Made by a program: the position numbers and the translations under genes | Shown: positions 3,703 to 28,877 of the stretch, piece by piece | How positions within the stretch are numbered: position 1 is the first letter of the stretch | Layout of the letters: each line of letters begins with the position of its first letter | The notes under the pieces: model-generated | Seen by the model: the letters and a program-made list of their open reading frames with translations, nothing else | Database searches by the model: none | Told to the model about the DNA's origin: nothing | Assembly (NCBI RefSeq): GCF_018389705.1 | Contig: NZ_CP065581.1 | Span: forward strand, 990,001-1,022,000 | Length of the DNA: 32,000 bases | DNA from: Mycoplasma mycoides subsp. capri | Lineage (GTDB): Bacteria; Bacillota_I; Bacilli_A; Mycoplasmatales; Mycoplasmataceae | Direction: 5' to 3'

Positions 3703-4762
3703 CTTGCATTATGTATGTCTTTCCTTCTAAACGCATTTTACCAGCTTCTTTAATTGCTTTTTCACTACCTAATACTAATAAATCATTAATCGAATAAATA
3801 TCAGCTTTAATAAATCCTTTTAAAAAATCAGTATGAATTACTCCAGCACATTTAGGAGCAGTTCAACCTTTTTTAAATTGCCAACTTCTTACTTCTTGAG
3901 GTCCTGCTGTAAAAAATGTTTGTAATCCTAAAGTATCATAAGCTGCTCTAATTAATTGATCTAAACCAGATTCTTTAATTCCTAATTCTTTTAAAAATTC
4001 AATTTTTTCTTCTTTTGAAGCTTCAGATAAATCTTCTTCTATTTTTGCACAAATTTTAACTACTTGAGAATTTGATTTTTCTGCAAATTGTCTAACTTTT
4101 TTAACATAATCATTATCTTCTAATAATTCAGTATCACTAACATTACATACATAAATAATTGGTTTACTAGTTAGTAATTGATAACTTTTTAAAAGATCAG
4201 TTTGTTCTTCATCTAAAGTTAAACTGTTTAATAAAATTCCTTTATTTAAAGTATCTAATAAATAGTTTAAAAGATCATATTCAACTTTAGCTACTTTATC
4301 ACCTGATTTAAATTTAGGTAATATTTTATCAAGACGTTTTTTAACTGTTGTTTGATCTGCTAGCATTAATTCTAAATTAATAATTTCAATATCTCTGATT
4401 GGGTCAATACTATTTTCTACGTGCATAATTTCTTTATCATCAAAACATCTAACAACTTGACAAATAGCATCAGTTTGTCTAATGTTTGCTAAAAAAGCAT
4501 TACCTAAACCTTCTCCTTGACTAGCTCCAGCAATAAGTCCTGCAATATCAACAAATTCAATAGTTGTAGCTACTCTTTTTTTAGAATTAAAGATTTTAAA
4601 TAATTCATCTAATCTATAATCTGGAACTTCAACAATCCCTACATTTGGTTCTATAGTTGCAAAAGGATAATTTGCAGCTTCAACTTTTGAATTAGTAATT
4701 GCATTAAATAGTGTAGATTTTCCAACATTTGGTAGACCAACAATTCCTACTTGTAATCCCAT
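3668..4762 (-). CDS. ychF: Ribosome-binding ATPase YchF (Obg-like GTPase family)
   Basis: P-loop GIVGLPNVGKSTLFNAIT. After read-through of the TGA at 3863-3865 the canonical YchF C-terminus follows (TAPKCAGVIHTDFLKGFIKADIYS...GKMRLEGKTYIMQDGDVCFFKFNV), ending at the TAA at 3668-3670. 364 aa. Confidence 0.95.
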
Positions 4763-4999: not shown

Positions 5000-5695
5000 T
5001 TATTTACTCTCTTTTAAAATTTGTTGATATTTTCTTGGATATAAATTATTGGTGTGATTTATCTTTTTATAAAACAAATTAACTCTAGTTCCAAACCCTG
5101 TATCTTCTAATTCTTGAATATTGACTAATTTTAAGTTCATTTTTTGATCTTTATTTTTTAAATCTTTAATTTCTTGATAAGCTTTAGGTCCTTTTAATAA
5201 AATAAACATTCCATCAACTTTAACTAATTGCACACCCAATTCTAAAATAATATCTAAATAAGCAACAGCTCGTGAAATTACTATATCAAATTGTTCTTTA
5301 TACTCATTTAGTTCTTCAGCTCTTTTATTTAAAATTTCAACATCATTTAATTCTAATTTTTGAACTAAATATTTTAAAAAATTAGCTTTTTTATTATTGG
5401 ATTCAATTAAAGTTAATTTAATATTTGGAAAAAAGATTTTTAAAACAACTCCAGGAAAACCAGCACCAGTTCCAATATCAGCTATTTCTTGATCTGTTAT
5501 TTGAAATTGTTCAACAAACAATAAAGAATCTAAAAAGTGTTTTTCAAAAACTTCATTTAGTTGTGTAATTCTTGTTAAGTTATACTTTTGATTTTCTTGT
5601 ATTAAAATTTGATAATAAAGATTAAGCTTATTTTTAATTTCTTGATTTATAGTAAAGTTTTTATAATTTAAAAATATATCTCAATTACTAAACAT
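5000..5695 (-). CDS. rsmG: 16S rRNA (guanine527-N7)-methyltransferase RsmG (GidB)
   Basis: ATG at 5695, TAA at 5000-5002. SAM-binding motif DIGTGAGFPGVVLKI. N-terminal part MFSNWDIFLNYKNF...LTRITQLNEVFEKHFLDSL. 231 aa. Confidence 0.9.
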
Positions 5696-6370: not shown

Positions 6371-6408
6371 TTTAACAAAAATAAAACCTACACTAAACTG
6401 TAGGTTTT
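6371..6408 (-). terminator. Rho-independent terminator of APC permease 1
   Basis: AAAACCTACA (6383-6392) pairs with TGTAGGTTTT (6399-6408), loop CTAAAC. ATTTTTGTT follows on the minus transcript. The permease TAG (6393-6395) lies in the loop. Confidence 0.6.
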
Positions 6409-7973
6409 GCTATGATTTGAATTTCAGGATTTTCTAAATCATATTTTTTTCTTCTTTTTTCTTGAATACATCAAAATATAAAGACAGAACCAAGTTCTAA
6501 TAAAGTTAATAAAATAAATAACGGACCTTGGTAGTAATTACTTGTAAACCAATTTGAATTATTATTATTTTTATTAATCACATCTAGTGGAACAAGTATA
6601 GTAAATAAACTCATTGTTACAAATAAAACTAAACAACAAGCTGCAATTGATCCTAAAACTACAAATCCTTTTTTCTTTTCTACTTCTACTTTATTAGTTT
6701 TTCTATTAAATAAAGCTCCAATTATTAAAGTAATTATCATTATAAATGATAAACACGCATTAGAAGTGGCAATTATTTGAATTGGATAAATTAATCCATT
6801 TGTTGAACTAACTGCTTGTTCAACTGTTGCTGTATTTGTTAGTCCAACTGTTGCTAAAGTTCCAACTAAAATAAATGTCGAATAAATAGCTGTAGCAACA
6901 CTAACTTGAATTATTGCAATTCTTTTTGCTGAAATATTTTTTTGTGAAGTTAAATATAATTTATCAATAACATCTGATTCAATAACTACAAATGAAACAT
7001 AAGATAAATTATTAGCTCCGATTGAACATATTATTATAATAATCACTGAAGTTAAAATATTAGCTACTCTTGATAATGTGCTACTATCACTAGAGCTTAA
7101 AACTTTACCACCATTAAATAATTTTTCTAATAAAGCACCAATTGATCCATCTGGAGAACCCATTAGTAATGAAACGGCTATTAAAGTATAAAATACTGAA
7201 ACAAAGATCATTCCAAAAATTAAAGCTTTTGGAACAACGTCTTTATATTTTGCTTTTCTTTGTGAATTACAAATAAAAATAAACCCATCAAAAGCAAATA
7301 GAATTCCACCAAAACCTCTAAAAAATAATAGTGGATTAAAATTGTTTGTTGATCATTCAACTTTAGAAGTGCCACCGGTTGGATTAGTTATATTAATTCC
7401 ACCACTTAAAAAAGCACCATTTTGATCAAATAAAACTACACCTGCAATAAGTGCAATTGCTAAAGGTATAAATTTAAAAATTGTTCCGAATGCTTGATAC
7501 TTTCTAGATATTGAAAGATCAAAAACATTAATTAAAGCATTAATTATTATTATTGCAATTCCTGTTGTTAAAAATATTAATAAGAAATGTATCCCTTTTA
7601 GTTGCACAGTACTAAACATCATCAAAATAAATGTTATAAAAAATGAAATAAACATTGATTGCATTACTGGTAAATAAAAAAAGGCATTTAAGATTGCAAA
7701 AAACGATCCAACTTTTCTATTAATAAATAGTTTAGTTCAAACTCCAATAGTTCCACTTCCACCATTTTTTGTTGATGAAGCTATTTCTAAAAATAAATAA
7801 ACCATTGAAACACAAACTGAACCAACTATGATTCATAGAATTATTGCTATTATAGGATTTCTTGTATCAAATAAAATTTCTTTATTTTTAAAATATACTC
7901 CAGCTCCAACAACAGAACCAATCGTCATTGCAAATAAAGTTAAAAATTCTAGTAATTTTCCTTTATTTTTCAT
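6393..7973 (-). CDS. APC-family amino acid permease (paralog 1)
   Basis: ATG at 7973 with a GGAAGGG RBS. I verified by hand that pieces 6471..7211 and 7353..7664 and the flanking segments are joined only by TGA. FFRGFGGILFAFDGF and about 12 hydrophobic helices. 526 aa. Confidence 0.85.
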
Positions 7974-8118: not shown

Positions 8119-8799
8119 TTATGATCTAATTATTTTTTTAATCAATACTTTTACTCTTTTATAAATTATACAAAAAATTGCATGATTAACTACTAATTTA
8201 ATAATTGTAAACATAAACGTTACAGCTAGTATTGGACCAAATGGTTTTGGTACTTTATATAAATCAAATATAAATGTAGCATTTGAAATATAAGCTACTA
8301 GACCACCAAATAAAGTAGCTATTACTGAAGCAAATACAACAAATAAAATTTCAAATTTTGCAAAAGCTTCACTTTTATTTGATTCGATAAACATTTTTTT
8401 AACAATATAAAACACTGTTGCAAAACCAATAATTGCTGAACTATCAACTAGCATTAATGATAATAAACCAATAGGCTCACTACCTAATAATAGTCTCATT
8501 CAAACTGAAGCAACTGTAAAAATTAAGCTTCAAAATAGATTAGTTGCAGTTAATACTACAGTTGAAACTCAATAGTTAATTTCTAATTTTAAATAAGGTG
8601 CACTTAGAAATATAACTAATGCTCCCATTACATATTTAGAAAATAAAGTAAGTAAGATTTGTAAAGCAAGTAGAGTTGCTAATAGTGCAATTTTATTAGT
8701 AGATAATAAAAAATATTGTCTTAGTGATTGAACTCTTTTGATTTTTTTATCTTTTTGAAGTTCTAAATTATTATCTTTTTTCTCTTTGTATGTGATCAT
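8119..8799 (-). CDS. Small 5-6 TM membrane protein, ECF-transporter S-component-like
   Basis: Pieces 8119..8499 and 8569..8799 are in one frame, joined by TGA. 226 aa. A basic N-terminal tail is followed by STNKIALLATLLALQILLTLF and further helices, which resembles substrate-capture (S) components. The family assignment is tentative. The start overlaps the end of permease 2 by 29 nt. Confidence 0.5.
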
Positions 8800-10309
8800 T
8801 TTTCAAACAAAGACCTCCTATAAGTCTTTTGTTTTGATTATATCAAAGGATGGCTACAAAAATTAAACCTAAAACCATTAATAATAAGAATAAAGGACCT
8901 TGAGAATGTTGAGCTGTTCATCAACTATCTCCATTTCTAATAACACCTAATGGAACTATAAAAGTAAATAATCCCATTGATGAAAAGAAAATAAATGTAA
9001 TTAATCCAAATATTGCTAAAGGGATAAATCCTTTAATTTTTTTAACTTCTACTTTATTAGTTTTTCTATTAACAAGAGCAGCTACTATTAAACTAGCCAT
9101 CATTGCAAATGATAAACAAGAACAAGTTGATGACATAATTTGAATTAAATACAACATCCCAGAAGCTGAATCAGTAGCATTTCCTACTTCAATTTGTTTA
9201 TTTAAACTAATAGAAGAACTAGCTCCAACTATAATAAAAATTGCAAAAATAGCATAAGAAATTACACCTTGAATTAAACCAATCTTTTTAAAACGGTGTT
9301 TATCATCAACTGATTTTATATAACTTAAACCATCAATAACATCTGATTCTAATCCAGCCATTCCAATATATGAATAAGCATTTAATCCTAAAAAGCAAAT
9401 AATCATTGAAATAATTGCAACCATTACTTTAACAGTTTGATTTACTTGAGTTTTTAATGGTTGACCGTTATTAAATACTCTTTCTAATAATTGTTCAATA
9501 GATCCATCTGGTGAACCTAAAATTAGTGAAATTGACATTATTAAATAAAATACAGCAGCAAACGCCATAGCTGAAACTAATGCAATTGGTACTACATCTT
9601 GATGTTTTGCTCTTTTTTTAGAATTACAAATATAAATAAATCCATCAAAAGCAAATAAAATTCCACCAAAACCTCTAAAAAATAATAATGGGTCAAAATC
9701 GTGTTTAGTTCAACTTTTAGTTGCATCAATTCCTCTAACATCAACTCCATTATTTTGTAGTGCACCAAAATGATCAGCTAGAATAAATCCTGCAAATAAT
9801 GCAATAATTAATGGAAAGAATTTAAAACCTGTTCCAAAAATTTGAACTGCTTTAGAACCTTTAATACTAAAGACATTTAATATATTGGTTAATAAAATAA
9901 TAACTGCACCAACTAGTAAAAAAATTAATAAATATTGATAACCATATAATTTAAGATCAAAAATATTTAAAAAATAAGATAATAAAGCTGAAGTAAAAAT
10001 TGCTTGATTTACAGGAGCATAAAACATTGTTTGAAAATTAGCAAAAAAAGAACCAACTCTATGCCCAAAAAAAGCTCTTGATCAAGAACCAATAGTTCCA
10101 TTTTTTGTTGATGAAGATATTTCTAAAAATAAATAAACTACAGCTATACAAGAAATTCCAACTGCAGTTCATAATACTATAGCAATTATTGGGTTGTGTG
10201 TTTCAATTAAAATATCTCTATTTTTAACATAAATACCAGATCCAACAATTGTCCCAACAGACATCATAAACAAAGTTAGAAATTCAAAAAATCTAGACTT
10301 GTTTTTCAT
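8771..10309 (-). CDS. APC-family amino acid permease (paralog 2)
   Basis: ATG at 10309. Pieces 8921..9568 and 9710..10027 are in frame. Two TGA codons at 8918-8923 read through to the TAA at 8771-8773. The N-terminus MKNKSRFFEFLTLFMMSVGTIVGSGIYVKNRDIL is colinear with paralog 1 (MKNKGKLLEFLTLFAMTIGSVVGAGVYFKNKEIL). 512 aa. Confidence 0.85.
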
Positions 10310-17872: not shown

Positions 17873-18634
17873 ATGAAAACTAAAAATACTAAATACATTA
17901 GCATATATTTAGATGAAAGTGGTTCAGGAAATTCACCTTTTTTTATTGTCGGAGGATTTTATTTATTAATTTTGATAGAAAACAAATATATATTCAAGAA
18001 GTTAATATATCAAAAAACATTGAATATATTGAGTCCCAAATAAAAAAGAACAACAAAAAAACAATAGATTTAAAAAAAAGAAATCAAATTTATAAATCTA
18101 ACATTTAAAAATAAAAGATTACTTTTCAGTAATATAAAGAATAATAATCAGGTTAATATTTCTATGTTATATGATTTAGTTAAATTTAAAAATGTAAATC
18201 AAAAACCCATATTAATTGATTATTTATACAATATAATGGTCTTTTTAATTCTTCAAAATATACTTTTTGATTTATTAAAACAAGATTTTATAAATTTAAA
18301 AGATGAGATTTCTATAAAAGTAAACATAGATCAAAGAAGAAACTATAAAAACTCTCTAACCAAATCTAATTCATTTAAAGAATTAAAGATGTATTTGAAC
18401 ACTAGGATGTATGAAAAATCTAAATTCATAAATATGAATAAAATAGAAGTTTTACAGTTTAATTCTAAGTTAGAACCAAATATTAGGTATGCAGATTATT
18501 ATGTGGGATTGTTATCATCGGTAAGAAGAATTTTAAAAAATCAAGCAAAAAGTTATGATTTTAAATCAGACAAACTATTATGTTTACTAAATAATAAAAT
18601 TAAACATATCGAATATAAAAATACCTTTTCTTAA
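17873..18634 (+). pseudogene. DUF3800-family gene disrupted by two compensating frameshifts
   Basis: The ATG at 17873 (RBS TAGGAAA) opens MKTKNTKYISIYLDESGSGNSPFFIVGGFY, a DUF3800-like N-terminal DESG motif, and this frame stops at 18041-18043. The sense continues in the -1-related frame (open 17902-18108). It returns to the original frame at the A8 run at 18072-18079 (open 18074-18634). The last part holds the track ORF 18164..18634 with SKLEPNIRYADYYVGLLS, resembling the C-terminal DUF3800 motif. Confidence 0.65.
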
Positions 18635-18678
18635 TATAATAAATAAATCACATTAATATATGAAAAAACACTTAAAAA

Positions 18679-18687
18679 TGATAATAT
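18679..18687 (+). promoter_or_regulatory. Candidate extended -10 promoter (TG-n-TAATAT) for the small RNA
   Basis: TG at 18679-18680 and TAATAT at 18682-18687, about 5-8 nt upstream of the start of the GC-rich block at 18692. No clear -35 element. Confidence 0.35.
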
Positions 18688-18691
18688 AAAA

Positions 18692-18864
18692 GTGTCACTT
18701 AAGACCAAAAACCCGAGGCACGTTCCTAAGCGTATGTGGATGACCACGAAATACGTTCGATTTTGGCAGCGGCGACAAGTGTTTACTTGTCTCAAAGTAA
18801 AAGAATTAATAATAAATTCTCAAAAAGCAACATCACAGACGTCTATGTTGCTTTTTGTTTTTTT
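18692..18864 (+). ncRNA. Structured small RNA of uncertain identity (possibly the U6-like MCS4-type RNA reported in Mycoplasma capricolum)
   Basis: I counted 48% G+C over 18692-18791 against a background of about 25%. Nested helices are CCAAAA (18705-10) with TTTTGG (18761-66), CGTATGTGG-ATGA-CCAC-GAA-ATACG (18731-55), GACAAGT-GTTT-ACTTGTC (18774-91) and AGAATT/AATTCT (18802-20). It has its own terminator. The 5' end is inferred, not mapped. Confidence 0.6.
18826..18864 (+). terminator. Rho-independent terminator of the small RNA
   Basis: AGCAACAT (18826-33) pairs with ATGTTGCT (18845-52), followed by TTTTTGTTTTTTT. Confidence 0.7.
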
Positions 18865-18870
18865 ATATAC

Positions 18871-18897
18871 AAAAAAAGAACTGCTATAGCAATTCTT
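18871..18897 (-). terminator. Rho-independent terminator of mnmG
   Basis: AAGAACTGC (18876-84) pairs with GCAATTCTT (18889-97) with one mismatch. A U7 run follows on the minus transcript. It overlaps the mnmG stop and is convergent with the sRNA terminator. Confidence 0.6.
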
Positions 18898-20785
18898 AAT
18901 TATCGATATTTTCTAATGGATACTGCTTTTTTAAATAAAATAATAGCATTTGAATATCAGCTGGATTAACTCCAGTAATTCTTGAAGCTTGTCCAATATT
19001 TAAAGGTCTAATTTTTTCTAATTTATCTTTTGCTTCTGTTGCTAAATTATCAACTTTAGAATAATTAATATCTAAAGGAATTTTTTTACGTTCTAATTTA
19101 ACTAATTTATCAACTAATTGACGCTCTTTTTTAACATAACCTTCAAATCTAATTTCAATTACTATTGATTGTAATTGATTAGTTTTTAATTTTTGTAAAC
19201 TTGGGATAAATTCAATTAATTCATTAATATCAACTGTTGGAATTTTAATAATTTCATAACCACTATATCCATGAGATAAATCAGCTTGATTTTTATTTTT
19301 TAAATTTAATGCTAATTGAGATTTTGGTGTAAATCTAATTTCTTTTAATTCTTTGATAGCTTCTTCAATTTCTTTAACATAAATTAAATATTGGTTTCAT
19401 TCTTGATCACTGATTAATCCAATTTCTCTTCCATATTGTTTTAATCTAGTTTCGGCATTATCATTTCTTAATAATAATCTATGTTCTGCTCTACTTGTTA
19501 ATAATCTATAAGGTTCTCAAACACCTTTATTAATTAAATCATCAATCATAACACCAATATAAGCTTCGTCTCTTCTTAAAATAATTGGATCTAATCCATC
19601 TATTTTTCTAGAAGCATTAATACCAGCTATTAATCCTTGTCCAGCAGCTTCTTCATATCCACTAGTTCCATTAATTTGTCCAGCAGTAAATAAGTTTTTA
19701 ACATCTTTTAATTCTAAACTAGGAGATAATTGAATTGGATCTATACAATCATATTCAATCGCATAAGCTCAATGTTTTACTCTAACATTTTCAAATCCAG
19801 GTAGTGATTTTAACATCATTTCTTGAACTTCAATAGGCATTGAAGTTGAAAATCCTTGAACATATCAAGTATCTCCATTTAAAGTTTCAGGTTCAATAAA
19901 AATTTGATGAGTATCTTTTTCTTTAAATCTGACAACTTTATCTTCAAAGCTAGGACAATATCTTGGTCCAATTGATTCAACAGTTCCTGAATACATTGCA
20001 GATTTTTCTAAATTGTCTTCAATTATTTTTTTAGTCTCTAAAGTTGAATGAATTAAATAACAAGGTTGTTGTTTTTCTATTGGAGTATAGGTATTTGTTG
20101 AAAAGCTAAAAGCTAGTTTCATATCAGTTCCTGGTTCAAGAACAGCATTACTCAAATCAACTGAATCTCTATAAACTCTAGCAGGAGTTCCGGTTTTAAA
20201 TCTCATCAATTTGATTCCCAAATCAATTAGAGATTTACTTATTCCCTTAGTTGTTTTTTCATTATTAGGTCCTGATTCATATCTATCAACACCTTTTAAA
20301 ATTTCAGATTTTAAATAAGTTCCAGTTGTAATGATTACTGCTTTAGCATTTAAAATAGTTTGATCATCTAAATAAATACCTGTAACAGTTTTATTTTCAT
20401 CATAAACTAAACCAGTGCATGCTCTTGTAATTAAATCTAAATTTTTTTGATTTTTAATTACATTTCTCATATATTTAGAATATTCTTCTTTATCTGATTG
20501 CACTCTTAATGCTCATACACCAGGTCCTCTTGAAGAATTAAGTAATTTAGTTTGTAAAGCAGTAGCATCAGCGGCTTTGGCCATTTCTCCACCAAGTGCA
20601 TCAATCTCTCTAACTACTATTCCTTTAGCAGGACCACCAACACTTGGATTACATGGCATTGTTGCAATTTTATCTTCATACAAGTTAATTAAAGCTGTTT
20701 TTTTATTTAATCTAGCACTAGCTAAAGCAGATTCAACTCCTGCATGACCTCCACCTACAACAATTACATCATAATTACTTTTCAT
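18896..20785 (-). CDS. mnmG: tRNA uridine 5-carboxymethylaminomethyl modification enzyme MnmG (GidA)
   Basis: FAD motif [20 protein letters not shown]. Pieces are joined by TGA. The C-terminus is [34 protein letters not shown] with the TAA at 18896-18898. RBS AAAGGGTGA. 629 aa. Confidence 0.95.
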
Positions 20786-24780: not shown

Positions 24781-26109
24781 ATGAAAAATAAACATATCAG
24801 ACTACTAGCAAAACTTGGAGTTTTATTTTCTGTTGCATCACTTCCATTAGTTGTTGTTTCATGTAAAACTTCAAATTCTAATAACAATAAACCTAATAAT
24901 AATCAACAAAAACAATTAAGTAAAATTGATATTTCAAGTTTTAAAGGTAAAATTGAACCAAAAAATGAGTGAAATAAAGAAAATGTTTTACAAGCATTAC
25001 TAAAAATAAATGGACTAGATAAATTAACTGAAAATGATTTTGAATTTAGTATTAAGAAAGCTAATTTATTACATAATGGAAAACTAGTAATTAAATCTAA
25101 AGACGATTCTAAAATTATAAAAGGTGAACTAAGTTTAGAAATTAAAAAACTAGATAAAGTTAAAAAGGTTGAAACAAAATATAATGATAATAAAACTGAA
25201 GTTTTAGAAATTGGTTATGATGAAAATGGAAAAATTTCTAGGTTTGCTGAAACTGTTAAAAAAGTTCCTGAAAAACTACCAGAAGAAATTATTAATTTAG
25301 ATGATGCTTTTAGAAAAAATCAATCTAATACAATTGAGAATCTTGATAAATGAGACACATCTAATATAGTAAGTATGTCAGCAATGTTTCAAAATGCTAA
25401 GAATTTTAGTCAAGATTTATCAAATTGAAATACAGAAAGTGTAACTGATATGAGTTATATGTTTAATGGTGCAAATAAATTCAATGGTAATTTATCAAAT
25501 TGAAATACAAAAAATGTAAAAAATATGTGAAGTTTATTTGAAGATACTAAAGAATTTGACCAAGATATTTCTAACTGAGATGTAAGTAATGTTGAAAACA
25601 TGAAAAGTATGTTTAAGAACGCATCAAAATTTAATAAGTCACTTTCAAATTGAAATCTAAAGAGTATAAAAACACTAGATTCTATGTTTTTTGGTGCTTC
25701 TGAATTTAATAGCGATATCTTCAAACTAGAAAATAATCTAGTAACTGATATGAGTTATATGTTTTATCAAGCTAAAAAATTTAATAAGTCTTTAGATTGA
25801 GATATATCAAAAGTAACTAATATGAATAGTATGTTCAATAACGCTCATAGTTTTAATCAAAATATAACTAATTGAAATGTTTCAAATGTTAAAACTATGA
25901 AAAGTATGTTTAGTGATGCACATTCATTTAGTCAAGATATAAAAGATTGAAAAGTTGATAAAGTAACTGATATGGAGCGTATGTTTCAAAATGCAAGAAG
26001 CTTTAATAGAAATATTTCGAATTGAAACGTAAAAAGCGTAAAAACATATGATCACTTTAGTATACACTTAAAAAATGAATATAAACCTCAATTTGGAAAA
26101 AATAAATAA
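24781..26109 (+). CDS. Lipoprotein with DUF285 (BspA-like, mycoplasma repeat) domain
   Basis: Strong RBS TAGGAGAG. The signal peptide has the lipobox LVVVSC. The track ORF stops at a TGA at 24970 and reads on to the TAA at 26107-26109. 442 aa. Confidence 0.85.
25351..26049 (+). repeat. Ten tandem 75-nt (25-aa) DUF285 repeat units
   Basis: The unit-initial TGA (Trp) recurs at 25351, 25426, 25501, 25576, 25651, (Leu at 25726), 25798, 25873, 25948 and 26023. The unit consensus is W-[DN]-x-S-x-V-x-x-M-x-x-M-F-x-x-A-x-x-F-N-x-x-[IL]-S-N. Confidence 0.85.
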
Positions 26110-26316: not shown

Positions 26317-27540
26317 ATGTTAGTAGAAACAAGCAAGAAAAATAAACAAGTTATCTTTAATTTAAAAAACTCAAAGTATCATTCATCATATTTCATTTAT
26401 ATTTGTGTCGGAATTTTATTTATATTAGGATTAATAGCTTTAATATTTTCAACACCTTATAAAAACGATTTTAAACTTTCTCAATTTTTTGAAAAAATAA
26501 CAAATTATGAATTAGGTAAATGATGAGCAAGAGGAACAGAATTAATTGGAGATACCCAAGTACTTATTTATTATCTTGCATTATTTATGATAGCTATTGA
26601 GTGCTTTTTTGCTTATAAAAAACAAAATAAAAAAGTGTTCTTTATTAAGCATTACTATTTAGTAAAAATAATTTATATATTAATTTTATTTACAATTATA
26701 TCAATAGCCATTTTTCGTATTTATAAAGTTTATAACTTTGATAACGGATTTGGAAAGTATGGTGATTTGGTATTTCAAGATACTATAATCTATAGACAAA
26801 TACTAACTACACTTATTCTTGTTTATCAAGTTATTATTTTGAGTTTATTTTTTTATACAATACATTTTAAATTAGCAAAAAGATCTGATATTTTAACTAA
26901 TAAATATTTTAGTAAGTCTATTAAAATTTTAATTATAGGTCCTTTTTTACTAACTGTTATTACTTTGATAAAAGGAATGACTTCTCGTCCTTATTATTGA
27001 AATGTAATTTTTGCAGATCTACTAAATAAAATGTCTAAAACTCATCCAGAATTTGTAACTTATTATTTAAAACAAGAAAATTTTCAACTAGGTTTTTTAG
27101 CCAGTTCATCAGATTTTAAACAATACGATTTTTTAAAACTAGTTGATATTAATCAAATTAAAAATATGTATTTTTCTAATGCAAATTCAACTGATAACTG
27201 AGCTTGATATGTATCTAATGGATTTTTTAATCCATCAAAATATACTTGTCAATTTACTTATTATCAAGAATGAGCGTTTCCATCAGGACATGCTTGTCAA
27301 ACTATGGTGGTTGGTTATGCTTGATATTCGATTTTTATTGCTGATAAGAAGTTAACTACTAAAAAATTAATGTTTTGTTTTGTTTATTTATTGTTTTTAA
27401 TTTCAATGAGTTTTGCTTTAGTTACTACTAGAGGGCATTGAGTTAGTGATGTTGCTTTTTCTTATGTTTTTACAATTCCTTTAATAGTTATTGTTGAAAT
27501 AATTTATAAAAAATTAAGTATAAAATACTTTAAAATTTAA
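26317..27540 (+). CDS. PAP2-superfamily phosphatase with extended N-terminal membrane domain (paralog 1, intact)
   Basis: I verified the whole frame codon by codon from 26998 to 27540. The three PAP2 motifs are KGMTSRPY, FPSGHA and TRGHWVSDV. 407 aa. Confidence 0.8.
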
Positions 27541-27670: not shown

Positions 27671-28877
27671 ATGACAAATACATTACCTAAAAAAGATGCG
27701 ATCAGTACTGAGTTTAAATTAAAACAACAAAAAACATTTTCTTTTAAGCCTATATTTATTAGTCTTATTATTATTTATGTTCTAGCTGTTATTAGTTTAA
27801 TATTTTCAACACCTTATAAATATGATTTTAAACTTTCTCAATTTTTTGAAAAAGGTTTAAAATTTGAAATAGTTAAATACTGATCAATGTGATATGAAAT
27901 AGTTGGAGATACTGAAATAATTATTGTTTATTTATCTGTAGCTATGATATTAATTGAAAGTTTTTTTAGATGAAAAACTATAAATAATCAAATTAACTTT
28001 TGATCAAAAAATAAATGAATATTAAAAGCAATTTATATCATAATAATCATTAGCTGATTAATTCAAGTTATTATAAAAAACATTAAAACATTTAATCAAG
28101 ATAATGGATTTGGTAGTAGTGGTGATGCTGTTTTATTAGATAGTAATATTTATCGTAATTCAGGAAACGTATTAGTTAGTGTTATTCATACAATTTTACT
28201 AATTAGTGTATTTTATTGAATTCATTTTAAACTTGCTAGATCTAAAGATTTTTTAATTAATCAATATTGAATTGATGCTTTAAAAGTTTTAATAGTAGTA
28301 TTAGTTTCAACAAGTACAGTTATTTTAAAAGGAATGACTTCAAGACCGTTTTATTATAATGTTATTTATAATGACTTATTAGAACAAGTAAAATTAAATG
28401 GAAATAATCATTGAGTTGAACATTACTTAAATCAAGATGTTTTTAAACATGGATTTTTAGATATTAAAACTAATAAATATTATAGCTAATTCAACAACCG
28501 ATTGACCTTGATATGTATCTAATGGTTTTTTTAATCCATCAAAATATACTAATCAATTTAATTATTGACATGAATGAGCATTTCCGTCAGGTCATGTTGC
28601 TGCTAGTTTAGTATTAGGTTATGTTTTATACTTATTTATAACTAAAAACAATAAGATTACTTATAAGACACTAATTATACTAGGTATTTATTTATTACAT
28701 TTATTTTCAATGAGTTTTGCTTTAGTTGTTAATAGGGGTCATTGAGTTAGTGATATTACTTTTTCTTATGTGTTTTATATTCCTTTAATAGTTGTTATAA
28801 ATGTGTATTCTAAAAATTGAATATTAAAAATAACTGAATTTATTAATAAAAAATTAAATAGTAAAAAAGGTTGTTAA
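27671..28877 (+). pseudogene. PAP2-superfamily phosphatase paralog 2, split by a single frameshift
   Basis: The frame from the ATG at 27671 carries motif 1 (KGMTSRPF) and ends at the TAA at 28487-28489. Motifs 2 and 3 (FPSGHV, NRGHWVSDI) continue in the next frame (open from 28461) to the TAA at 28875-28877. Removing one nt near 28485-28488 (tatagcTaattca) restores KYYSNSTTDWPWYVS, colinear with paralog 1 MYFSNANSTDNWAWYVS. Confidence 0.7.

What the first reader, a model, noticed from the sequence alone, without database searches (positions are those of the whole stretch)
18667..18866. Orphan GC-rich structured small RNA between a decayed DUF3800 gene and mnmG
A block of about 100 nt (18692-18791) is 48% G+C by my count, against a background of about 25%. 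In Mollicutes that contrast is characteristic of structural RNA. It has a plausible extended -10 (TG-n-TAATAT, 18679-87) and its own strong terminator (18826-64). It folds into several mutually compatible helices. One is a closing helix, CCAAAA/TTTTGG. A second is a 9-bp interrupted hairpin, CGTATGTGG-ATGA-CCAC-GAA-ATACG. A third is a 7-bp GTTT-loop hairpin, GACAAGT/ACTTGTC. The fourth is AGAATT/AATTCT. The overlapping ORFs (18692..18889, 18736..18969) have no RBS and odd composition. It lacks the SRP RNA, tmRNA and RNase P signatures. The stretch GGATGACCACGAAATACGT (18738-56) and GGCAGC (18765-70) resemble the U6 snRNA segments GGAUGACACGCAAAUUCGU and GGCAGC. From memory, a U6-like small RNA (MCS4) was described in Mycoplasma capricolum. 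Its function was unknown as far as I recall, and I cannot confirm identity here.
Basis: partly seen in the sequence, partly recalled or inferred. Interest (0 to 1): 0.7.

Follow-up and report, generated by a model that had tools for sequence, protein, structure and literature searches.

The report
DUF3800-linked small RNA in Mycoplasma
This is a real, structured small RNA gene with its own promoter that sits directly after a DUF3800 (RNase H-like) gene in Mycoplasma mycoides and M. feriruminatoris. By position, strand and sequence it appears to be the abundant transcript of unknown identity recently reported in the synthetic cells JCVI-syn1.0 and syn3A, and it matches no catalogued RNA family.

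Summary
Window 18692-18791 is 48% G+C, the highest 100-nt value in a 23% G+C window from Mycoplasma mycoides. It has a conserved extended -10 box (TGnTAnTAT) and a strong terminator. Homologues were found only directly 3' of DUF3800 genes: in M. mycoides (two alleles, 98% and 86% identical) and as two tandem units in M. feriruminatoris (74-76%). Across them 98.6% of proposed pair cells stay paired, and four core pairs plus two terminator pairs show compensatory changes. Indels break every reading frame.

A 2025 preprint reports an abundant, sharply bounded forward-strand transcript between MMSYN1_0884 and gidA/0885 in JCVI-syn1.0. It is also expressed in syn3A and was left unidentified. I show that syn3A lost DUF3800 but kept this RNA gene.

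The RNA is therefore not "orphan". It belongs with the DUF3800-associated RNAs (Weinberg 2017, eleven unrelated motifs, function unknown). It matches none of them, nor any other Rfam family, even at E<=10.

The U6 resemblance is weak (p~0.02), not collinear and not conserved. Identity with MCS4 could not be tested. My best guess is a partner RNA of the DUF3800 RNase H-fold nuclease; that mechanism is inferred.

The parts
17873..18634 (+). DUF3800 gene, decayed in this strain. It carries a -1 slip in a T-run near 17966 and a +1 in a poly-A tract near 18078, leaving ORFs of 56 and 156 aa.
   Evidence: ORFs. The gene is intact at 252-253 aa in GM12/JCVI-syn1.0 and in subsp. mycoides. Pfam PF12686 E=3.5e-12. 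The lesions are mapped.
18679..18687 (+). Extended -10 promoter element TGATAATAT. The predicted transcription start is about 18692-18695.
   Evidence: TGnTAnTAT is invariant in all alleles and in both tandem copies of M. feriruminatoris. It is retained in syn3A after deletion of the upstream genes, and the transcript is reported to be still expressed there (preprint 10.1101/2025.10.23.681674).
18694..18773 (+). 5' domain of the RNA. It contains P0 (18694-99 with 18768-73), an invariant UAA (18700-02), P1 (18703-10 with 18761-67), two junction pairs (18714-15 with 18758-59), P1a (18716-18 with 18725-27) and the interrupted hairpin P2 (18729-39 with 18744-57).
   Evidence: RNAalifold consensus. 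Pair counts. Compensatory A-U to G-C change at 18710:18761 and U-A to C-G change at 18735:18751. Several G-U pairs would be C-A mismatches on the - strand, which supports the + strand.
18774..18791 (+). P3 hairpin GACAAGT-GTTT-ACTTGTC.
   Evidence: Two pairs show compensatory changes (C-G to U-A at 18776:18789, and U-A to C-G at 18780:18785). P3 is deleted in one M. feriruminatoris copy (L040 copy b), so it may be dispensable.
18792..18820 (+). A/U-rich linker with a possible weak hairpin AGAATT/AATTCT (18802-07 with 18815-20). The 3' part, AAUAAAUUCUCAAAAAG, is invariant across species.
   Evidence: Alignments A4 and A6. There is no covariation, so the hairpin is unproven. No excess of complementary sites was found in the window.
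18821..18864 (+). Intrinsic terminator of the RNA: a 13-bp stem, an 11-nt loop containing a 2-bp inner helix, and a U-run.
   Evidence: Folds. One compensatory pair lies in the main stem (C-G to U-A) and one in the 2-bp inner helix, both in M. feriruminatoris.
18876..18897 (-). Terminator of the convergent mnmG gene. It is not part of the RNA.
   Evidence: Synteny with M. capricolum and M. feriruminatoris begins here, at 18855-18861.

Best explanation
This is a non-coding RNA gene of about 130-175 nt. Transcription runs from its own extended -10 promoter (start near 18693) to its own terminator (end near 18864). Together with the upstream DUF3800 gene it forms a two-gene cassette, so it is a Mollicutes representative of the 'DUF3800-associated RNAs'. 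The 5' domain folds into a multi-helix junction (P0, P1, P1a, P2) followed by hairpin P3.

Shown here or in cited work:
- The RNA is structured.
- The unit carries its own conserved promoter and terminator, and its 98%-identical counterpart in JCVI-syn1.0/syn3A is reported as an abundant, sharply bounded transcript.
- It is strictly adjacent to DUF3800.
- It diverges together with DUF3800.

Inferred mechanism: the RNA binds its cognate DUF3800 protein, an RNase H-fold enzyme with conserved YLDE, DQR and IRYADY motifs. It controls the enzyme, most likely holding it inactive or specific in the manner of an antitoxin or sensor RNA. In that model the RNA is made in large excess and is kept even after the nuclease gene decays.
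For: Adjacency: the RNA was found only directly 3' of DUF3800, on the same strand. This holds in M. mycoides subsp. capri and mycoides, in a divergent M. mycoides allele (L028/L029) and in M. feriruminatoris, where the downstream neighbour is prs rather than mnmG. It is absent from the mnmG loci of M. capricolum, M. leachii, M. yeatsii and M. putrefaciens. No DUF3800 homologue from those species turned up in the protein searches.

Co-divergence: between two M. mycoides strains the flanks are 97-100% identical. The DUF3800 ORF is 73% identical, the spacer 55% and the RNA 5' domain plus P3 84%. Identity returns to 97-100% at about 18800.

Structure: 98.6% of pair cells are paired and 6 pairs show double changes, against 0-2 in slid controls.

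Independent, abundant expression: the preprint 10.1101/2025.10.23.681674 reports a forward-strand transcript with sharp edges downstream of MMSYN1_0884. It is far more abundant than 0884 and is also seen in syn3A. Syn3A lacks DUF3800 but keeps the RNA gene and its -10 box. The tandem copies each carry a promoter and a terminator.

Asymmetry of loss: the RNA is intact where DUF3800 is decayed (window; L035; L040). No intact DUF3800 without the RNA was seen in the genomes examined.

Precedent: eleven unrelated RNA motifs flank DUF3800 genes, several with terminators (PMC5737381). DUF3800 has an RNase H-like fold and serves as an effector or accessory in type VII retrons and in Cas12a2/a3 and VI-F loci.
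Against: Only two closely related species are sampled, giving three alleles, so adjacency and co-divergence could reflect one inherited block and one recombination event.

The RNA persists and is expressed without DUF3800 (syn3A, natural pseudogenes). That equally fits a function independent of DUF3800.

No RNA-protein contact has been shown. There is no complementarity to the DUF3800 5' UTR.

The core has no significant thermodynamic z-score.

The RNA matches none of the Rfam DUF3800-I to -XI, drum or skipping-rope models.

In a Legionella Tn-seq study a DUF3800 gene scored as essential alongside antitoxins. This does not fit a simple model in which DUF3800 is the toxin.

The AlphaFold model of the protein was low-confidence (pLDDT 48). 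The RNase H fold therefore rests on the Pfam match and on the literature.
Confidence: 0.5

Rival explanations
1. Stand-alone abundant small RNA, possibly the M. mycoides counterpart of M. capricolum MCS4. Its function would have nothing to do with DUF3800, and the adjacency would be historical linkage within a block that moved or recombined as a unit.
For: The RNA is retained intact and expressed where DUF3800 is decayed or deleted (preprint). It is much more abundant than the DUF3800 mRNA. Only three alleles in two sister species support the linkage. From my own memory, unverified, MCS4 is an abundant 125-nt RNA said to resemble U6, and the window sequence has a short U6-like stretch.
Against: The RNA was not found at the M. 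capricolum or M. leachii mnmG loci. The 18-mer of hairpin P2 is absent from every hit in the scan of species-representative genomes. That scan also failed to return M. mycoides, so its coverage of this clade is uncertain. The divergence boundaries coincide with the DUF3800 start and the end of the RNA's structured part. DUF3800 genes are known to attract unrelated RNA partners.
Confidence: 0.3
2. Activating cofactor or guide: the RNA is a scaffold or guide that the RNase H-fold DUF3800 protein needs in order to find or cut its nucleic-acid target. This would be analogous to omega-RNAs of TnpB/IscB, which are encoded at the 3' end of their nuclease genes.
For: The position is directly 3' of an RNase H-fold gene on the same strand. 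The protein and the RNA core co-diverge. The RNA is abundant and stable. An invariant single-stranded stretch, AAUAAAUUCUCAAAAAG, lies 3' of the structured domain.
Against: No candidate target complementarity above chance was found in the window. The invariant stretch lies outside the co-diverging cassette. The protein is small (252 aa) and has no recognised RNA-binding or guide-loading domain. No transposon ends are present. Retention of the RNA after nuclease loss is not predicted by this model.
Confidence: 0.12
3. 3' UTR or processing product of the DUF3800 mRNA, or a small protein-coding gene.
For: The RNA is on the same strand as DUF3800 and 45-60 nt downstream of it. The window has ORFs at 18692-18889 and 18736-18969.
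Against: The RNA has its own conserved -10 box. Each tandem copy has its own promoter and terminator. The transcript is still made in syn3A, where DUF3800 is deleted. Read depth has sharp edges and far exceeds that of 0884. The ORFs are broken by 1-2-nt indels and stop codons in relatives.
Confidence: 0.03
4. Bacterial homologue of eukaryotic U6 snRNA.
For: The window has two short U6-like stretches. GGATGACCACGAAATACGT resembles U6 positions 70-89, and GCTTTGGCAGC in the L028 allele (TTTTGGCAGC in the window) resembles U6 positions 6-17.
Against: The local alignment gives p~0.02 in the window sequence only, and 0.12-0.44 in the other alleles. The two segments are in the opposite order to U6. 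The matching bases lie in a stem and loop that vary among alleles. There is no Rfam U6 hit at E<=10.
Confidence: 0.01

Closest known systems
DUF3800-associated RNA motifs DUF3800-I to -XI, plus drum and skipping-rope (Weinberg et al. 2017, PMC5737381; Rfam RF02969, RF02968 and others)
   Same: It is a structured RNA encoded next to a DUF3800 gene and ends in a Rho-independent terminator. It is not a 5' leader, it contains an invariant UAA, and its function is unknown.
   Different: It matches none of those covariance models even at E<=10. It occurs in Mollicutes. Here the position is fixed (3' of the gene, same strand), with direct expression data and an allele-level co-divergence signal.
MCS4 RNA of Mycoplasma capricolum (Ushida and Muto 1993; recalled from memory, not retrievable here)
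   Same: It is an abundant small RNA of the M. mycoides cluster, of unknown function, with a short U6-like stretch.
   Different: The M. capricolum mnmG locus lacks this RNA, and no M. capricolum DUF3800 homologue turned up. The predicted primary transcript is about 172 nt rather than 125 nt. The sequences could not be compared.
Type III toxin-antitoxin RNAs (ToxI/ToxN, CptIN, TenpIN)
   Same: An abundant structured RNA is paired with a nuclease gene. The pair would need cognate specificity (co-divergence). The RNA is tolerated without the protein gene. The RNA is duplicated in tandem in one species.
   Different: There are no short internal repeats. The RNA lies after the protein gene, not before it, and has its own promoter. 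DUF3800 has an RNase H-like fold, not a ToxN/Kid-like fold. Toxicity of DUF3800 has not been shown.
Type VII retrons (RT with DUF3800; Mestre et al. 2020, PMC7736814)
   Same: A DUF3800 protein works alongside a structured non-coding RNA locus in a defence context.
   Different: No reverse transcriptase gene is present in the locus. There is no msr/msd-like inverted repeat.
Unannotated intergenic transcript downstream of MMSYN1_0884 in JCVI-syn1.0/syn3A (bioRxiv 10.1101/2025.10.23.681674)
   Same: This appears to be the same gene. The GM12-type locus L021 is 98% identical to the window, and the position and strand match.
   Different: The preprint reports expression only and says identification failed. 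The structure, the homologues and the DUF3800 link are added here.

Membership tests
DUF3800-associated RNAs (class defined by gene association, Weinberg 2017) | Conserved RNA structure encoded next to a DUF3800 (PF12686) gene | tested here: met
   The RNA is directly 3' of DUF3800 in all loci that carry it. Pfam E=3.5e-12. Covariation.
DUF3800-associated RNAs (class defined by gene association, Weinberg 2017) | Rho-independent terminator at the 3' end (stated for several of the motifs) | tested here: met
   Stem 18821-18857 plus a U-run, conserved with one compensatory pair.
Rfam DUF3800-I to -XI, drum, skipping-rope (individual families) | Match to the family covariance model | tested here: not met
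   cmscan of Rfam 15 gave 0 hits at gathering scores in the window. None of these families appeared at E<=10 on 18500-19000, on the core 18685-18800, or on the M. feriruminatoris copies.
U6 snRNA (RF00026) | Covariance-model match, or collinear similarity that includes the functional boxes | tested here: not met
   No hit at E<=10. The local match has p~0.02 in the window only, is not collinear and is not conserved in homologues.
MCS4 RNA (M. capricolum) | Sequence identity or similarity to the published MCS4 gene | not testable with these tools
   The paper and sequence are not in the held library.
MCS4 RNA (M. capricolum) | Presence in the M. capricolum genome | tested here: inconclusive
   The RNA is absent from the M. 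capricolum mnmG locus. The exact 18-mer is absent from all scan hits among species representatives. A diverged copy elsewhere in the genome cannot be excluded.
MCS4 RNA (M. capricolum) | Abundant stable small RNA of about 125 nt | tested here: inconclusive
   Abundance in syn1.0/syn3A is reported. The ends are not given. The predicted primary transcript is about 172 nt, and 125 nt would require 3' trimming.
Type III toxin-antitoxin RNA | Array of short tandem repeats upstream of the toxin gene, separated from it by a terminator | tested here: not met
   No internal repeats are present. The RNA lies downstream of the protein gene. Only whole-unit duplication is seen, in M. feriruminatoris.
Retron (type VII) | Adjacent reverse transcriptase gene | tested here: not met
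   The neighbours are asnA, mnmG or prs. No reverse transcriptase is present.
SRP RNA, tmRNA, RNase P RNA, 6S RNA, riboswitches | Rfam model match | tested here: not met

The most novel reading that the evidence does not exclude
DUF3800 and its neighbouring RNA form a previously uncharacterised two-component ribonucleoprotein system: an RNase H-fold nuclease whose activity is gated or targeted by a cognate, rapidly co-evolving structured RNA. The Mycoplasma cassette would then be a twelfth, structurally new RNA partner. It also comes with ready-made genetics. There are natural DUF3800 knockouts, two co-diverged alleles for swap experiments, and syn3A, which expresses the RNA alone.
Probability: 0.35. 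Interest if true: 0.8.

Novelty: new variant of a known kind. Interest (0 to 1): 0.6.

Why it matters
Three consequences follow.

1. It gives a probable identity to an abundant transcript in the minimal cell JCVI-syn3A and its parent syn1.0. The authors who mapped that transcript could not identify it. An unannotated, highly expressed RNA whose partner gene was deleted matters for whole-cell models and for further genome minimisation.

2. DUF3800-associated RNAs have been an open puzzle since 2017: eleven unrelated structures next to one protein family, with no proposed function. DUF3800 now appears in retrons and in CRISPR accessory modules. A version in a small, engineerable Mycoplasma makes the question directly testable. 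That organism offers natural loss-of-protein variants and two co-diverged alleles.

3. It shows that the 'U6-like' appearance of this RNA is not conserved and should not be taken as homology.

Tried and rejected
**Rfam.** The whole window at gathering scores gave nothing. At E<=10 the local region gave only terminator-driven chance hits, and the core gave nothing.

**Similarity searches.** BLASTN against plasmid and phage collections gave no match.

**Genome scan.** The genome-contig scan with the 18-mer GGATGACCACGAAATACG returned 13 hits, none from a Mollicute; BLAST extended each match to at most 23 nt, so I take them as chance. It also failed to return M. mycoides itself, presumably because the region is masked or the representative genome differs.

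**Metagenome and viral scans.** Scans with the DUF3800 alignment and with a degenerate RNA pattern found nothing.

**Literature.** Searches for MCS4 or the Ushida and Muto paper found nothing usable.

**Antisense regulation.** Pairing of the RNA with the DUF3800 5' UTR is no better than shuffled sequence. Complementary sites for the invariant linker occur at chance level.

**Protein structure.** The AlphaFold2 model of DUF3800 from a 3-sequence alignment was too poor to use (pLDDT 48). No solved relative exists. PADLOC, PHROGs and NCBIfam gave nothing useful.

**Thermodynamics.** The stability of the core alone is not significant.

**Distant relatives.** P0174-P0176 were found only after the contig look-ups were exhausted, so their neighbourhoods remain unexamined.

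Full report
**The observation.** The window is a 23.4% G+C Mollicutes sequence in which TGA encodes Trp. Its mnmG and the DUF3800 fragment match Mycoplasma mycoides proteins exactly. Positions 18692-18791 are 48% G+C, the highest 100-nt value in the whole window (mean 23.4%, sd 5.6%). The sequence shows TGATAATAT at 18679-87. The simple terminator scan reported only mnmG's own terminator on the other strand (18897-18876), presumably because the loop of the RNA's terminator is longer than that scan allows.

**Known RNA families.** Rfam 15 gave no hit at gathering scores anywhere in the window. At E<=10 it gave only weak hits driven by the terminator. The 116-nt core gave nothing at all, and the M. 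feriruminatoris homologues gave nothing relevant. This excludes SRP RNA, tmRNA, RNase P RNA, 6S RNA, riboswitches and U6. It also excludes the DUF3800-I to -XI, drum and skipping-rope families, at least two of which (RF02969, RF02968) are documented in Rfam 15.

**Relatives and context.** The orthologous regions downstream of mnmG lack the RNA in M. capricolum, M. feriruminatoris, M. yeatsii, M. putrefaciens and M. leachii. Synteny with M. capricolum stops at window position 18861, just past the RNA's terminator.

The RNA is found wherever the neighbouring DUF3800 gene is found:
- GM12/JCVI-syn1.0-type M. mycoides subsp. capri and subsp. mycoides, with an intact 252-253-aa DUF3800 and an RNA 98% identical.
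- M. mycoides strains with a divergent DUF3800 allele (66% amino-acid identity), where the RNA is 86-87% identical.
- M. feriruminatoris (DUF3800 57% identical), where two complete RNA units lie in tandem between DUF3800 and prs. Each has its own -10 box and terminator, and they are 74-76% identical to the window RNA.

Protein searches found this DUF3800 subfamily only in those two species, plus three distant relatives from JGI and Logan assemblies (34-39% identity). None came from M. capricolum or M. leachii. Across all six proteins the motifs YLDE, DQR and IRYADY are invariant. This fits the DE and C-terminal acidic motifs described for the RNase H-like DUF3800 domain (PMC7736814; PMC10910872).

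**Structure.** RNAalifold on seven sequences gives a 5' domain made of a terminal helix P0, P1 (CCAAAA/TTTTGG), a 3-bp P1a and the interrupted hairpin P2. Hairpin P3, an A/U-rich linker and the terminator follow.

On that structure 98.6% of pair cells are standard pairs, against 39-47% when partners are slid by 1-3 columns. Six pairs show changes on both sides, against 0-2 in the slid controls (the same on the model-based alignment). Compensatory changes occur in P1 (A-U to G-C), P2 (U-A to C-G), P3 (two pairs) and the terminator region (one pair in the main stem, one in its 2-bp inner helix). Many G-U pairs would be C-A mismatches on the opposite strand, which fixes the + strand.

There are limits to this evidence. 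Only three lineages contribute, so the number of independent events is small. The core alone has no significant folding-energy z-score (-0.03 to -1.4). AGAATT/AATTCT never varies. P3 is deleted in one M. feriruminatoris copy.

No reading frame survives the 1-2-nt indels and stop codons among alleles.

[quoted passage not shown] The read depth has sharp rises and falls and greatly exceeds that of 0884. The region lies opposite the reverse-strand gidA/0885. [quoted passage not shown] Position, strand and sequence (the GM12-type locus is 98% identical) point to the RNA studied here; the preprint gives no coordinates or sequence, so this match is inferred.

I retrieved the syn3A locus. CP016816.2 at 543,379 bp is syn3A to my own knowledge. 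There, DUF3800, asnA and the next gene are gone, but the RNA gene with its -10 box is intact. So the RNA does not depend on the DUF3800 promoter, and it is not a 3' UTR.

**Link to DUF3800.** Weinberg et al. 2017 (PMC5737381) reported eleven mutually unrelated RNA motifs beside DUF3800 genes. Several have terminators, UAA is often present, and the authors offered no functional hypothesis. The Mycoplasma RNA shares the association, the terminator and an invariant UAA (18700-02), but none of the eleven structures.

One new piece of evidence here concerns divergence within M. mycoides. The window strain and strain L028 are 97-100% identical in asnA, mnmG and the RNA's linker and terminator. Across one block, however, they are only 73% identical in the DUF3800 ORF, 55% in the spacer and 84% in the RNA 5' domain plus P3. 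The boundaries of that block fall at the DUF3800 start and at about 18800. The protein and the structured part of the RNA have therefore diverged, or been exchanged, as a unit.

A second pattern concerns decay. DUF3800 is decayed repeatedly: in the window by homopolymer slips, in L035, in M. feriruminatoris L040, and in further fragments listed. The RNA stays intact in each of the three decayed loci I could check (the window, L035 and L040). I saw no intact DUF3800 without the RNA.

**Mechanism.** The steps shown are that the RNA unit is structured, non-coding, has its own promoter and terminator, is genetically coupled to DUF3800, and by position, strand and 98% identity corresponds to an abundant, sharply bounded transcript in syn1.0/syn3A. 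The rest is inferred.

I favour a partner RNA that binds and restrains or specifies the RNase H-fold DUF3800 nuclease, in the manner of an antitoxin or sensor. This fits the RNA excess, the cognate co-divergence, the tolerance of protein loss, and the defence-system contexts of DUF3800 (type VII retrons, Cas12a2/a3 and VI-F accessories).

Some observations count against this, or are neutral. The RNA has no complementarity to the DUF3800 5' UTR. The sample is small. In a Legionella Tn-seq study a DUF3800 gene behaved as essential, like an antitoxin.

The main rival is that the RNA has an independent function and is merely linked to DUF3800. In that case it might be the MCS4 RNA.

**U6 and MCS4.** The best local alignment (GGATGACCACG-AAATACGT against GGATGA-CACGCAAATTCGT) has p~0.02 against shuffles for the window sequence, and 0.12-0.44 for the other alleles. 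The second U6-like segment (TTTGGCAGC) lies 3' of the first, whereas in U6 it lies 5'. I regard the resemblance as chance.

The MCS4 sequence could not be obtained. Identity with MCS4 therefore remains open.

**Verdict.** The feature is a real and expressed structured small RNA, with covariation support limited to three lineages, and it is not orphan. It is best filed as a new structural variant among the DUF3800-associated RNAs, and it appears to be the unidentified transcript of JCVI-syn1.0/syn3A. Its biochemical role is unknown.

Noticed in passing
L034:5417-5596 (-), JCVI-syn3A CP016816.2: The minimal genome lost DUF3800 (0884), asnA and the adjacent 214-aa gene. It kept the RNA gene and its promoter intact, so syn3A expresses the RNA without its presumed protein partner.
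   Followed up: yes
window 17873-18800 compared with L028:4001-4916: This is a sharply bounded block of high divergence. DUF3800 is 73% identical, the spacer 55% and the RNA core 84%, inside flanks that are 97-100% identical between two M. mycoides strains. It looks like an allelic cassette or a recombination import.
   Followed up: yes
L030:4845-5031 and 5149-5334; L040:3846-4032 and 4150-4321: M. feriruminatoris carries two tandem complete RNA units. In a strain whose DUF3800 is split into 126-aa and 140-aa ORFs, both copies remain, but copy b has lost hairpin P3.
   Followed up: partly
window about 17966 and about 18078: DUF3800 is inactivated here by a -1 slip in a T-run and a +1 slip in a poly-A tract. 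Several other strains carry differently truncated versions (156, 183, 140, 126 aa). This suggests recurrent loss or phase-variable loss.
   Followed up: partly
proteins P0174, P0175, P0176: These are distant relatives (34-39% identity) of the Mycoplasma DUF3800 in JGI and Logan assemblies. One lies on a contig of 1,013,235 bp, the same length as the contig recorded for mnmG P0031, so possibly the same record. Their neighbourhoods could not be fetched, so it is unknown whether they have an RNA partner.
   Followed up: no
window 18803-18827: The stretch AAUAAAUUCUCAAAAAG just before the terminator stem is invariant between species even though the surrounding linker varies. No excess of complementary sites was found in the window.
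   Followed up: partly
(genome-contig scan): The exact 18-mer is present in all main-allele M. mycoides loci I fetched, yet the species-representative collection returned no M. mycoides hit. The region may be masked there, or the representative may carry the other allele. Absence in that scan is therefore weak evidence.
   Followed up: no
window 25384-26055: Six 75-nt direct repeats (60-71% identical to the reference copy) lie inside the 442-aa ORF 24781-26109. A 440-442-aa ORF at the corresponding position in M. feriruminatoris (L002/L003) carries Pfam PF03382 (DUF285), so these are probably DUF285-type repeats.
   Followed up: no
window 6393-7973 and 8771-10309; 26317-27540 and 27671-28489: There are two pairs of diverged tandem paralogues, about 71-79% identical at the DNA level. 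One pair consists of two ~520-aa ORFs; a permease identity is my guess from their sequence and was not tested. The other consists of two membrane-protein-like ORFs.
   Followed up: no
L002:7156-7227 (-): The G+C-rich island downstream of mnmG in M. feriruminatoris is an ordinary tRNA gene, not a relative of this RNA.
   Followed up: yes
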